A stretch of DNA of 64,000 bases from NCBI RefSeq assembly GCF_003790525.1, contig NZ_CP033635.1; one strand, 5' to 3'. The position numbers are program-made. Below are positions 56,201 to 59,200 of the stretch, in pieces. Each line of letters begins with the position of its first letter. Positions within the stretch are counted from its first letter, which is position 1. Source of the DNA: Escherichia coli (GTDB lineage Bacteria > Pseudomonadota > Gammaproteobacteria > Enterobacterales > Enterobacteriaceae).

Positions 56201-59200
56201 TTATTCTCTAGCCAAGACTTTAAATTTATTGAACTTTCTGATGACTTCTGTACAGGATCCAGCATCATGCCGCAGAAAAAGAACCCTGATGTGGCGGAAA
56301 AAATGCGTGGTAAAGGTGGGAGAATGTATGGAAATCTGATGGCCATGCTGACTATTATGAAAGGCATACCGCTAGCGTATAATACAGACATGAGCGAGGA
56401 TAAAGAGCAGGTCTATGACTCAATGGATACTCTACAGGCCAGCTTAAGAATAATGGCACCTATGATCGAAAAAATGGTTATCCTTGCCGAAAATACGCGT
56501 GCAGCAGCCGCTCGAGGATTCTCGAATGCAACAGATATGGCCGATTATCTGGTCCGTAAAGGTATTCCTTTCAGAGAAGCTCACCATATTGTTGGTAGTG
56601 CAGTAAATTACTGTATTAAACATAAAAAAATGTTAGAAGAGCTTACTATGGAAGAATTCTCCACATTTGATAATAAAATAGAAAAAGATATTTATGAAAG
56701 TATTTCTCTGGAGGCTTGCATTAAGGCCAGGATGTCTTATGGTGGAACCGGACCTGATGCTGTCAAAAAACAAATAGAGATTGCAAAATCACTTTTAAAA
56801 TAGTTAAGAATTATAATGTTTAAGATTCCCCGGATATTATATCCGGGAATATCTTTGAGGTTGAAAAATGGACGCTCTATTTTTTATACAACTATTTATT
56901 GTTCTGGCCTGTATTGGAATCGGCGGAAAATACGGCGGAATGGGGCTTGGTGCTGGAGGTGGGTTAGGGGTTGCAATATTGGTTTTGGGCTTTGGACTGA
57001 AACCCTCCTCTCCCTCCATTACTGCTATGTTAATTATTATTTGTGTTATTAGTGCTGTCAGTATATTACAAGCTGTTGGAGGATTAGATTATTTAGTCAG
57101 GGTCGCAGAACGGATACTCCGTAAGAAACCACAGGCGATAACCTTTGTAGCGCCAATATTAACTTCAGTATTTACACTATTTTGTGGGACGACTTATGTC
57201 GCTTTCTCCTTATACCCTGTTATTGCTGAAGTCGCCGCTGAAGCAAAAGTACGTCCAGAACGTGCATTATCTGCAACGGTCATTGCAGCCAGTGTGGCAG
57301 TGGCTGCCAGCCCTATGAGTGCAGCAACTGCCGGGATGCTGGCTATACTTCATGAGTATGCAGGGATCACGTTAGGGCAAATATTATCTATTGCCCTTCC
57401 TTCGTTTTTTATGGCTGCAATTGTTACCAGCTTTTCAGTCTACAAGCGTGGTAAAGAACTGGAAGATGATCCTGAATTTCAAAGGCGTGTTGCAGCAGGT
57501 GAGTATGAGTTCATGCACACCGAACAGAAAAAAGAATATGTCGCTGCACCAGGTGCAAGAAAAGGGGTTGCTATTTTTGCCATAGGAGTCGTGCTGGTCC
57601 TTATTCTCGGATCTTTTACTGAGCTTCTTCCGTCGTGGGATGGAAAAAGATTATCAACCCCAATGGTCATCCAGATGATTATGTTGACTGCAGCTTTATT
57701 GATCATGATTGTGGGGAAAGTTCCAAGCAATAAATTTAACAGTGGCTCTGTGTTCCGTGCTGGTTTGATGGGGGTTGTGGCAATACTTGGTGTTTCGTGG
57801 ATGACTGCAACATTTTTTGATGCTTATCAGGCAGAGCTGATCAATGTTTTTGGCAATCTTGTAAATGATGCGCCTTTGCTGTTTGGCTTTATCGTATTCT
57901 TGTTTTCTCTGGTGATCATGAGCCCGGCTGCGACAGTAGCTGCGATTATGCCATTAGGAGTCACCCTGGGTATTCCTGCACCTTATCTTATTGCAATTTT
58001 TGCCTGTACTTGTGGTGATTTTATTATACCCGGAGCGAATCAGATTGGTTGTGTGGCGTTTGACAGAACTGGTACTACCAGAATTGGGCGCTTTGTTATC
58101 AACCATAGCTATATACGTCCTGGGTTCGTCATGGTCATTTCCCAGGTTGTTTTTGCCTACTTAATTGCGCAGGTTATTCTGTAACATTAAGGAATAAATG
58201 AAGAGGATAACACTGTGGCATGACGAATTAGCCCCCTTCAGCGTTTTTGAGGAAGGGGGATTAAGAAAATATTACACAGCTGTAAGAATACTTCTCTGAT
58301 TACACTAATATAGTGGAAAAAAGGAAGCAGAAGATAGTTGAAGCCAGAACGGTAATCAGACCGGGTAACATATAACTGTGATTTACTACATACTTGCCAA
58401 CTCTGGTTGTTCCTGTTCTGTCAAACGCCACGCAAGCAATTTGTGCACCACCAGGAATAATGAATGATCCGCACGTTACCGGAAGCAAAGCTATGAGCGT
58501 CTCAGTCGAATATCCCATTAATACGCCAGCAGGAAATAATGCCACAGCAGTTGCTGCGGGACTGTAAATCACAGCAGAAAGAACAAACACAATCACACCG
58601 AATATAACTGGGTTATGAAAATCATTGAAAGTGTTATTAAATAAATCTTGCCATGCTTCAAAGAAAGAACTCATCATCCATGAAAGACCAAATATGGCAA
58701 CAACTCCAACCAGACCGGCCTTAAAAACGGATCCTGAGTCAAGTTTCGATGGAGAAATCCGACATACCATCATAATGATACATGCTGTAGTCAACATGAT
58801 GATTTGCAATGCTGTTGGAATACTCATCCGTTCTACACCGGCACTGGTATTCCATACCGGACGTAATTCTGGAACAGAGCCTAAAACAACAACCAAAATG
58901 ATCCCAGAAATAAAAATCATCAGGGCTTTCTTCGCTGTTTTAGATATAATACTGATTGTACGTTCCCCAGTTTTTACTGACTCAAATTCACCTTCTGCAA
59001 CTCTGCGTTGAAACTCTGGGTCCGTTTCAAGATCATGGCCCCGTTTATAAACAAACAAACAACCAACAAGACACCCCAAAATAGTTCCCGGTACAGTAAT
59101 CAATAAAATATCTAAAGCAGAAACATGTAATCCGGAAAAGACCGCAATCGTTCCTGTAACGACCGCACTTACTGGGCTCGCTATAAGACCAAAGTTGGCG

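What the first reader, a model, noticed from the sequence alone, without database searches (positions are those of the whole stretch)
56825..56850. Near-perfect palindrome between the ArgH-like gene and the first carrier gene
ATTCCCCGGATAT-T-ATATCCGGGAAT lies in the 64-nt intercistronic gap without a following T-tract, so it is more likely an operator or RNA processing/attenuation structure than a terminator.
Basis: seen in the sequence. Interest (0 to 1): 0.25.

Follow-up and report, generated by a model that had tools for sequence, protein, structure and literature searches.

The report
Conserved mRNA hairpin between two genes
The palindrome is real and most likely folds as a small hairpin in the messenger RNA between an argininosuccinate-lyase-like gene and a dicarboxylate carrier gene, probably tuning how much of each is made; this is an ordinary kind of feature, not a protein-binding operator.

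Summary
The sequence is as described: ATTCCCCGGATAT-T-ATATCCGGGAAT at 56825-56850, in the 64-nt gap between an ArgH-family gene and a DcuA/B-family carrier gene. The perfect core is CCCGGATAT/ATATCCGGG, 56829-56847. The window is an E. coli accessory island found in 149 of 5426 complete genomes.

Comparison supports an RNA hairpin on the sense transcript, not a DNA operator:
- Citrobacter-type homologues keep a 9-bp stem at the same place: 95.8% of cells paired, 2 compensatory pairs, 4 G-U wobbles valid only on the + strand.
- The stems are the best-conserved part of the gap.
- Across 27 ArgH-like→Dcu-like loci, all 20 gaps of 61 nt or more carry a strong hairpin, in about 11 unrelated sequences. 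The 7 gaps of 28 nt or less carry none.
- The hairpins sit 9-38 nt after the lyase stop codon.

It is not a canonical intrinsic terminator (weak U-tail), not a repeated REP-type element (one place per genome) and not an Rfam family. The palindrome does not recur at island promoters. A second copy of its 13-nt core, upstream of ansB2, is broken in a plasmid variant.

Best reading: an intercistronic hairpin that protects or attenuates the mRNA and sets the lyase:carrier ratio. This mechanism is inferred, not shown. Interest is low.

The parts
56829..56847 (+). Core hairpin. Stem CCCGGAUA (56829-56836) pairs with UAUCCGGG (56840-56847); loop UUA. As DNA it is a perfect 9+1+9 inverted repeat.
   Evidence: dG -11.2 kcal/mol; conserved pairing in homologues
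56825..56850 (+). The outer ATT/AAT pairs flank a bulged C. Position 56825 is polymorphic (A/T) within E. coli.
56822..56855 (+). Extended predicted stem in which AAGAU (56822-56826) pairs with AUCUU (56851-56855) around the core. It is weak and not conserved in register in Citrobacter.
55421..56803 (+). Upstream cistron: ArgH-family lyase of 460 aa (Lyase_1 + ASL_C2; passes the NCBIfam argH equivalog TIGR00838 at 615 bits against a cut-off of 279.5). Stop codon TAG at 56801-56803, 25 nt before the core stem.
56868..58184 (+). Downstream cistron: DcuA/DcuB-family anaerobic C4-dicarboxylate carrier of 438 aa.
56857..56860 (+). Shine-Dalgarno GAGG of the carrier gene, 9 nt after the core stem and 7 nt before the ATG. 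The SD-to-ATG segment is as conserved as the stems.
56812..56817 (+). -10-like hexamer TATAAT, 11 nt upstream of the core stem (cATAAT, cATAgT or cATAcT in homologues; A2 and T6 always kept). There is no convincing -35. It is the basis of the internal-promoter rival.
   Evidence: not listed by the promoter scan
55337..55364 (+). Likely promoter of the ArgH-like/carrier operon: TTGACA (55337-55342), 16 nt, TATAAC (55359-55364). The block CATTTGTTGACAATT is invariant in 7 homologues.

Best explanation
The palindrome is transcribed as part of a bicistronic (ArgH-like lyase, then Dcu-like carrier) mRNA. There it folds into an 8-9-bp G+C-cored hairpin, 25 nt after the lyase stop codon and 9 nt before the carrier's Shine-Dalgarno sequence.

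Its most likely role is that of an intercistronic mRNA hairpin of the malE-malF type. It would act as a barrier to 3'->5' exonucleases, and possibly as a weak pause or leaky stop for RNA polymerase. The lyase segment would then be more stable or more abundant than the carrier segment, so the soluble enzyme and the membrane carrier are made in unequal amounts from one promoter.

Shown here: the sequence, its position, its predicted fold, conservation of the pairing, and the recurrence of hairpins at this position in homologous operons.

Inferred: co-transcription of the two genes, and the effect on stability or read-through.
For: 1. Pairing is conserved across E. coli, five Citrobacter species and two metagenomic relatives.
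- 95.8% of cells are paired, against 26-67% when the 3' partners are slid.
- There are 2 compensatory pairs (C-G to U-A, G-C to U-A).
- There are 4 G-U wobble cells that pair only on the + strand, against 1 that would pair only on the - strand.

2. The stems are the most conserved part of the gap. Mean pairwise identity is 0.84-0.86 for the stems, against 0.70 for the spacer, 0.72 for the loop and 0.52 for the linker.

3. A plasmid-borne E. coli copy has 5 substitutions in the 22 nt before the hairpin and none in it.

4. L083 (ArgH 87% identical, same gene order) has a different 9-bp stem, CCCUUCCUG/CAGGGAGGG, at the same place.

5. Hairpins recur across 27 loci with ArgH-like followed by Dcu-like on one strand.
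- All 20 gaps of 61 nt or more contain a strong hairpin. These fall into about 11 unrelated sequences, from Budvicia, Limnobaculum, Enterovibrio, Sutterella and Anaerosinus.
- The 7 gaps of 28 nt or less contain none.

6. An independent hairpin pair (L090/L091) also shows an A-U to G-C compensatory change plus G-U switches.

7. Where the gap is long enough to tell (109 nt or more), the hairpin stays 17-38 nt after the lyase stop codon and 40-78 nt before the carrier start. This fits a 3'-end role for the lyase cistron. In the 61-64-nt E. coli/Citrobacter gaps the core stem is about equally near both ends.

8. The aspA2-dcuA2 pair of the same island has the same design of lyase, hairpin, carrier.

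9. Protective intercistronic structures, conserved between species, are an established mechanism in E. coli operons (PMC5927463, read).
Against: - There are no transcript data, so co-transcription, 3' ends and half-lives are all unmeasured.
- The E. coli core stem is modest (-11 to -13 kcal/mol).
- Close relatives L082 and L084 (ArgH 84-85% identical) do without any hairpin, with gaps of 11-13 nt. The element is therefore dispensable.
- The alignment is small (8 sequences, 6 of them near-identical in the stem), so the covariation statistics are weak. In one search, 3-4 of 500 shuffles reach the observed values, and that control is known to be lenient.
- The data do not separate a 3'-protective role for the lyase mRNA from a 5'-protective role for the carrier mRNA, or from weak termination.
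Confidence: 0.5

Rival explanations
1. Leaky intrinsic terminator. The hairpin plus the AAUAUCUUU tail stops a fraction of polymerases after the lyase gene, so the carrier is transcribed less.
For: - The lenient terminator scan lists it, with 8 pairs, 5 of them G-C, and 5 T in 8.
- One homologous gap (Enterovibrio, L023) holds a canonical terminator, GGCCAGC...GCUGGCC followed by UCUUUUUU.
- Several others have a UUUU run within a few nt of the stem: L014, L018, L021.
- The position, 25 nt after a stop codon, suits a terminator.
Against: - The tail score is 0.8, against 3.2-4.5 for three clear terminators in the same window. The combined d'Aubenton-Carafa-type score is -46, against +5 to +33 for them (formula recalled from memory).
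- 12 of 13 homologous hairpins scored also fall below zero.
- The tail is the least conserved part of the gap, at identity 0.52.
Confidence: 0.2
2. 5'-terminal stabilising hairpin of a separate carrier transcript. The transcript would arise either from a weak internal promoter (-10 TATAAT at 56812-56817, start near 56824) or from RNase E cleavage just upstream of the stem, as in papBA. The hairpin would then protect the carrier mRNA.
For: - A -10-like hexamer lies 11 nt upstream of the core stem. It keeps its two critical positions (A2, T6) in all 8 aligned sequences.
- An RN|WUU-like site, AG|AUU, lies at 56823-56827 (motif as cited in PMC5927463).
- The resulting 5' end would be within a few nt of the stem.
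Against: - There is no acceptable -35: at best 3 of 6, with an 18-nt spacer, by inspection. The site is not listed in the promoter scan.
- Such short A+T-rich motifs are common by chance here: 36 promoter-like sites in 7.7 kb against 24.5 expected.
- In long gaps the hairpin stays near the lyase stop codon, 40-78 nt from the carrier start.
Confidence: 0.15
3. DNA operator. A dimeric regulator, either the adjacent FCD/GntR-family protein or the DcuR-like response regulator, binds the dyad and blocks transcription into the carrier gene.
For: - The DNA dyad is perfect.
- The arms CCCGGAT/ATCCGGG are kept in E. coli and six Citrobacter-type sequences.
- The FCD regulator travels with the module.
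- The 13-nt core GGATATTATATCC recurs once, upstream of ansB2. Expected matches are 0.13, and 2 of 100 shuffles reach two.
Against: - No other copy with 2 or fewer mismatches exists in the window.
- The 3-mismatch match in the ArgH-like promoter overlaps the -10 and is not a palindrome in Citrobacter.
- The ansB2 copy is broken (ATATCC to ATATCA) in a 97% identical plasmid variant. ansB2 is not part of the module elsewhere.
- Variants keep pairing through G-U, which are mismatches in DNA.
- L083, Budvicia and Anaerosinus loci keep the regulator gene but carry unrelated stems.
- The dyad lacks the GT-Nx-AC core recalled for GntR-family operators (from memory, not tested).
- The invariant ATTTGTT.GACAATT block over the -35 of the ArgH-like promoter is a better operator candidate.
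Confidence: 0.07
4. No function. The hairpin is a fortuitous palindrome, or a relic of a donor-genome terminator that is simply inherited.
For: - About 2 such perfect inverted repeats per 64 kb are expected by chance.
- Relatives with 11-13-nt gaps lack it.
- E. coli and Citrobacter copies are close enough (ArgH about 92% identical) for much conservation to be inheritance.
Against: - The stems are more conserved than the flanking spacer, loop and linker.
- Changes in the stems are compensatory or wobble.
- Every gap of 61 nt or more in 20 loci from several phyla has a hairpin, in about 11 different sequences.
Confidence: 0.08

Closest known systems
Intercistronic protective mRNA structures (malE-malF hairpin; the differential operon decay elements of Dar & Sorek 2018, PMC5927463)
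   Same: - A stable stem-loop in the gap between co-oriented genes of one operon, shortly after the upstream stop codon.
- The structure is conserved between related species while the sequence drifts.
- It lacks a U-tract.
- The upstream gene encodes a soluble protein and the downstream gene a membrane transporter, as in malEFG.
   Different: - No decay, 3'-end or stoichiometry data exist for this operon.
- The malE-malF element is made of REP copies, whereas this hairpin is single-copy.
- The stem is shorter and weaker, at about -11 to -15 kcal/mol.
Rho-independent (intrinsic) terminators
   Same: A G+C-cored hairpin downstream of a stop codon. One homologous locus (L023) has a canonical terminator at this position.
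   Different: The U-tract is poor (AAUAUCUUU). The score is far below those of the window's own terminators. A co-oriented gene with its own SD follows 9 nt later.
papBA-type and ompA-type 5' stem-loops that protect the downstream mRNA from RNase E
   Same: A hairpin just upstream of the SD of the downstream cistron. An RNase E-like motif and a -10-like box could place a 5' end at its foot.
   Different: In homologues with long gaps the hairpin stays near the upstream stop codon, not near the downstream start. No 5' ends have been mapped.
REP/BIME extragenic palindromes of Enterobacteriaceae
   Same: An extragenic imperfect palindrome. The Citrobacter form, CCGGATGC...TATCCGG, resembles the outer part of the E. 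coli REP consensus as I recall it (from memory).
   Different: There is one place per genome in 145 E. coli genomes and none elsewhere. It is about 19-26 nt rather than about 35 nt. I saw no conserved REP head sequence.
aspA-dcuA (lyase plus Dcu carrier) gene pairs
   Same: The same gene logic: a fumarate-forming lyase followed by a DcuA/B-family carrier. aspA and dcuA are described as one operon in C. jejuni (PMC5293742). The island's own aspA2-dcuA2 gap has a strong hairpin.
   Different: The lyase here is of the ArgH family. The substrate of the carrier is unknown.

Membership tests
Intrinsic (Rho-independent) terminator | G+C-rich stem-loop shortly after the end of a gene | tested here: met
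   8-9 bp stem with 5 G-C pairs, dG -11.2 kcal/mol, 25 nt after the stop codon
Intrinsic (Rho-independent) terminator | Run of U residues immediately 3' of the stem | tested here: not met
   The tail is AAUAUCUUUG. Its tail score is 0.77, against 3.2-4.5 for three terminators in the window. The combined score is -46, against +5 to +33 for them (formula from memory). Only the lenient scan passes it.
Transcription-factor operator (GntR/FCD or DcuR type) | Dyad-symmetric DNA site | tested here: met
   Perfect 9+1+9 inverted repeat
Transcription-factor operator (GntR/FCD or DcuR type) | Located at or next to a promoter it controls | tested here: inconclusive
   No promoter-like site in the gap passes the scan criteria. 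A -10-like TATAAT lies at 56812-56817 without a good -35.
Transcription-factor operator (GntR/FCD or DcuR type) | Same motif at other promoters of the regulon, and sequence kept wherever the regulator is kept | tested here: not met
   No other copy with 2 or fewer mismatches. The promoter match is not conserved. The ansB2 copy is broken in a plasmid variant. Unrelated stems occur in loci that keep the FCD regulator.
Transcription-factor operator (GntR/FCD or DcuR type) | Protein binding | not testable with these tools
   Needs an EMSA or footprinting
REP/BIME repeated extragenic palindromes | Many copies per genome | tested here: not met
   A 45-nt query at E <= 10 finds 1 place per genome (one genome has 2: chromosome plus plasmid) in 145 of 5426 E. 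coli genomes, all at this locus where inspected.
Intercistronic protective mRNA structure (differential operon decay) | Stable RNA structure between co-transcribed cistrons | tested here: met
   The fold of the gap is -17.9 kcal/mol, z -2.7. The genes are co-oriented, 64 nt apart, with no scan-level promoter between them. Co-transcription itself is inferred.
Intercistronic protective mRNA structure (differential operon decay) | Structure conserved in homologous operons | tested here: met
   E. coli/Citrobacter group; other lineages
Intercistronic protective mRNA structure (differential operon decay) | Stable 3' ends at the structure and unequal half-lives of the flanking cistrons | not testable with these tools
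   Needs Term-seq or 3'-RACE and rifampicin decay RNA-seq in an island-bearing strain
Any curated Rfam family | Match to a covariance model | tested here: not met
   No match at the hairpin at E <= 10 in 55000-60000. The three weak matches lie elsewhere and are far below their gathering scores.

The most novel reading that the evidence does not exclude
The hairpin is one instance of a structure-conserved, sequence-variable cis-RNA element. The element would be an integral part of a horizontally mobile four-gene module: an ArgH-like lyase, two Dcu-like carriers and an FCD regulator. The module is seen in Enterobacteriaceae, Budviciaceae, Sutterellaceae and Negativicutes. On this reading the hairpin acts as a regulated attenuator, responsive to a protein or a metabolite, that gates carrier expression, rather than as a passive stabiliser.
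Probability: 0.06. Interest if true: 0.4.

Novelty: new member of a known kind. Interest (0 to 1): 0.15.

Why it matters
The hairpin itself matters little. Intercistronic hairpins that shape the relative expression of operon genes are well known. This one adds a tidy comparative example and corrects the operator reading.

It would be practically useful to anyone studying this uncharacterised accessory module of an ArgH-like lyase plus two Dcu-like carriers. The module is present in about 3% of complete E. coli genomes and on conjugative plasmids. The hairpin predicts that lyase and carrier levels are uncoupled after transcription, and that the regulator's operator should be sought at the promoter, not in the gap.

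Tried and rejected
1. Same palindrome elsewhere in the window.
- CCGGATATNATATCCGG with up to 3 mismatches gave two extra matches.
- 55364-55380 overlaps the -10 and conserved CTGA of the ArgH-like promoter. Its remainder is not conserved in Citrobacter. Rejected.
- 63927-63943 shares the exact 13-mer GGATATTATATCC. It lies 158 nt upstream of ansB2, in a module not linked to argH elsewhere, and it is broken in a plasmid variant. Treated as chance.

2. GGATATNATATCC in fetched loci. The L090 match is the tip of a canonical bidirectional terminator and is not kept in L091. Rejected.

3. REP-like or repeated element. One place per genome. Rejected.

4. Rfam scan. Nothing at the hairpin.

5. Shared 10-mer ATTTGTTGAC upstream of both argH and dcu2. 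It is ATTTGTTAAT on the dcu2 side in Citrobacter, so a shared operator is not supported there.

6. Outer helix pairing the post-stop sequence with the SD region. It is predicted in several sequences, but in a different register in each. Not treated as conserved.

7. Literature searches for this island or module found nothing specific.

8. ARG-box (ArgR) reading of the outer ATTCC/GGAAT arms. Rejected by inspection because the half-site orientation is reversed relative to the consensus as I recall it. Not tested.
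Full report
**Observation.**
- The window at 56825-56850 reads ATTCCCCGGATAT-T-ATATCCGGGAAT. 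The perfect inverted repeat is CCCGGATAT / ATATCCGGG at 56829-56847, with one base between the arms.
- It lies in the 64-nt gap between the TAG stop (56801-56803) of a 460-aa ORF and the ATG (56868) of a 438-aa ORF on the same strand.
- The upstream protein is an ArgH-family lyase: Pfam Lyase_1 + ASL_C2, and NCBIfam argH equivalog at 615 bits against a cut-off of 279.5. The downstream protein is a DcuA/DcuB-family carrier.
- The sequence after the palindrome is AATATCTTTGAGG. GAGG (56857-60) is the carrier's Shine-Dalgarno sequence.

**Context.**
- The window is E. coli. The segment 55300-58300 is at least 99% identical in 149 of 5426 complete E. coli genomes, including SMS-3-5, and it also occurs on a conjugative plasmid.
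- In SMS-3-5 it lies in an accessory island next to cobUST. The gene order is: ArgH-like, carrier 1, convergent carrier 2, FCD/GntR regulator, an orphan DcuR-like regulator, then ansB, dcuA and aspA paralogues.
- The region is A+T-rich, at 31-45% G+C.

**Is it more than chance?**
- On its own, only modestly. Perfect inverted repeats with arms of at least 9 nt and spacers of at most 8 nt number 11 in the window, against 2.3 +/- 1.7 in dinucleotide shuffles. Any single one could be chance.
- The 64-nt gap folds at -17.9 kcal/mol, z = -2.7, with 2 of 300 shuffles as good. The isolated core is -11.2 kcal/mol.
- The decisive evidence is comparative.

**Close homologues.**
- A scan of one genome per species, plus look-ups of the nearest metagenomic proteins, gave five Citrobacter loci (ArgH 92-93% identical) and two metagenomic contigs, L085 (92%) and L083 (87%). 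All have the same gene order and 61-64-nt gaps.
- All carry a hairpin at the same position. Citrobacter and L085 have CTCCCGGAT-GCAAT-ATCCGGGAG.
- On the alignment, the 9-pair stem forms standard pairs in 95.8% of cells, against 26-67% when the 3' partners are slid by 1-3 columns. Two pairs change on both sides (C-G to U-A; G-C to U-A). RNAalifold predicts the same helix independently.
- Four cells are G-U wobbles that pair only on the + strand (L004 twice, L002, L083). One cell would pair only on the - strand.
- In DNA these wobbles are mismatches. The selection therefore appears to act on the sense transcript, not on a symmetric protein-binding site.
- The two stem arms are the best-conserved parts of the gap (identity 0.84-0.86). 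The spacer is 0.70, the loop 0.72 and the linker to the SD 0.52.
- L083 has a largely different stem, CCCUUCCUG/CAGGGAGGG, at the same place.
- Within E. coli, the plasmid copy has five substitutions in the 22 nt upstream of the hairpin and none in it. The chromosomal population is split 69:77.
- The sample is small and six stems are nearly identical, so the shuffle statistics (3-4 of 500) should not be over-read.

**Distant homologues.**
- I found 27 loci in which an ArgH-like gene is followed on the same strand by a Dcu-like gene.
- The 7 with gaps of 11-28 nt have no hairpin.
- All 20 with gaps of 61-143 nt have a strong one, in about 11 unrelated sequences. Sources are Budvicia/Limnobaculum, Enterovibrio, several Sutterella lineages and Anaerosinus-like Negativicutes. 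Most have a fold z of -2.5 to -5.7.
- The Anaerosinus pair L090/L091 shows its own A-U to G-C compensatory change and G-C/G-U switches. The Budvicia/Limnobaculum stem keeps a G-U pair.
- The hairpins start 9-38 nt after the lyase stop codon. Their distance to the carrier start varies from 14 to 78 nt.
- In gaps of 109 nt or more they stay 17-38 nt from the stop and 40-78 nt from the start. That points to a role at the 3' end of the lyase cistron.
- The island's own aspA2-dcuA2 gap has the same design of lyase, hairpin, carrier.

**Terminator?**
- A lenient scan lists the site. However, with a d'Aubenton-Carafa-type score (formula recalled from memory) the tail scores 0.77 and the site -46.
- Three obvious terminators in the same window score +5 to +33, with tails of 3.2-4.5.
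- Only 1 of 13 homologous hairpins scored (Enterovibrio, L023) is positive.
- The tail is also the least conserved part of the gap.
- It is therefore not a canonical intrinsic terminator, though some leaky termination cannot be excluded.
- The convergent carrier1/carrier2 hairpin at 58231-58259 also lacks T-tracts.

**Operator?**
It gave no copy with 2 or fewer mismatches.
- The 3-mismatch match at 55364-55380 overlaps the -10 region of the ArgH-like promoter and is not a palindrome in Citrobacter.
- The exact 13-mer GGATATTATATCC recurs at 63929-63941, 158 nt upstream of ansB2 (0.13 expected, 2 of 100 shuffles reach two).
- That ansB2 module is absent from the Citrobacter and other versions of the ArgH module. 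The copy is also broken in a 97%-identical plasmid variant. I treat it as coincidence.
- The FCD regulator travels with the module in Citrobacter, Budvicia, Limnobaculum, Anaerosinus and the L082/L084 contigs, while the hairpin sequence does not.
- A better operator candidate is the invariant block CATTTGTTGACAATT over the -35 of the ArgH-like promoter.

**Other classes.**
- No Rfam family matches.
- It is not a repeated element. A 45-nt query at E <= 10 finds one place per genome, at this locus in every record inspected.

**Mechanism.**
- The best-supported reading is an intercistronic hairpin in a bicistronic lyase-carrier mRNA.
- By analogy with malE-malF and the conserved protective structures mapped genome-wide in E. 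coli (PMC5927463), it would block 3'->5' exonucleases, perhaps with some pausing or leaky termination. The lyase message would then outlast or outnumber the carrier message.
- Because the core stem ends 9 nt before the SD, it may also slightly hinder ribosome loading on the carrier cistron. This is inference.
- A rival is a papBA-like 5' protective role for the carrier mRNA. It is suggested by a -10-like TATAAT (56812-56817, with A2 and T6 kept in all homologues) and an AG|AUU RNase E-like motif at the foot of the stem. Both are weak, common motifs in A+T-rich DNA.
- Co-transcription, 3' and 5' ends and half-lives are untested.
- The element is dispensable, since the 84-85% relatives L082 and L084 have 11-13-nt gaps.

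**Verdict.** This is a new member of a well-known kind and of low general interest.

Noticed in passing
window 55421-60426; loci L002-L007, L082-L084, L091, L092: The four genes ArgH-like lyase, two DcuA/B-like carriers and an FCD/GntR regulator form a unit. It recurs, in varied order, in E. coli (149 of 5426 genomes and IncF/IncI plasmids), Citrobacter, Budvicia, Limnobaculum, Anaerosinus (Negativicutes) and unassigned metagenomic contigs. In Sutterella and Enterovibrio loci I checked only the ArgH-like/Dcu-like pair, not the regulator or second carrier. The lyase passes the argH equivalog model. I found no paper on this module. It may import a compound and cleave it to fumarate.
   Followed up: partly
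window 55325-55346: The block CATTTGTTGACAATT, containing the -35 TTGACA of the ArgH-like promoter, is invariant in 7 homologues while its flanks vary. It forms an imperfect dyad, ATTTGTT.GACAATT. It is a candidate operator for the FCD/GntR regulator.
   Followed up: partly
window 63929-63941 (L001 17631-17643): An exact second copy of the 13-mer GGATATTATATCC lies in the 487-nt gap between dcuA2 and ansB2, in sense orientation on the - strand. It is changed to ...ATATCA in a plasmid variant. Probably coincidence.
   Followed up: yes
window 58231-58259: A hairpin GCCCCCTTC...GAAGGGGG lies between the convergent ends of the two carrier genes. It has no T-tract on either strand and scores as a non-terminator both ways.
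   Followed up: partly
L001 19295-19449 (- strand; beyond the window end): The gap between the island's aspA and dcuA paralogues holds a strong hairpin, GAUCCGGCAGGGG...CCUCUGCCCGGAU. This is the same design of lyase, hairpin, carrier.
   Followed up: partly
L088 (E. coli CUVET19-970), equivalent to window 56801-56803: The ArgH-like stop codon TAG is TAT in this strain. The gene is annotated as a longer ORF (1626 nt) that reads through the hairpin region.
   Followed up: no
window 62724-63770: The island's AnsB looks nearly identical to my recollection of native E. coli L-asparaginase II, and its G+C (47-52%) is higher than the rest of the island. This suggests a mosaic island with a recently duplicated core gene under a different, A+T-rich upstream region.
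   Followed up: no
window 49369-49409: A perfect inverted repeat with 18-nt arms, TCCACGGACCGCACTCTT-ATGTC-AAGAGTGCGGTCCGTGGA, is the longest in the window. It lies about 180 nt upstream of the frameshifted TonB-dependent receptor gene.
   Followed up: no
window 60427-61404: About 1 kb without an ORF of 150 aa or more precedes the orphan DcuR-like response regulator gene, and no sensor kinase gene is nearby. It may be a decayed dcuS.
   Followed up: no
window 52000-55000: RefSeq annotation of SMS-3-5 shows a string of gene fragments here (IbrB-like, thioesterase, ClbP, galactonate dehydratase) beside an intact PAPS-reductase/DUF3440 gene. This suggests a decayed older island next to the ArgH module.
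   Followed up: no
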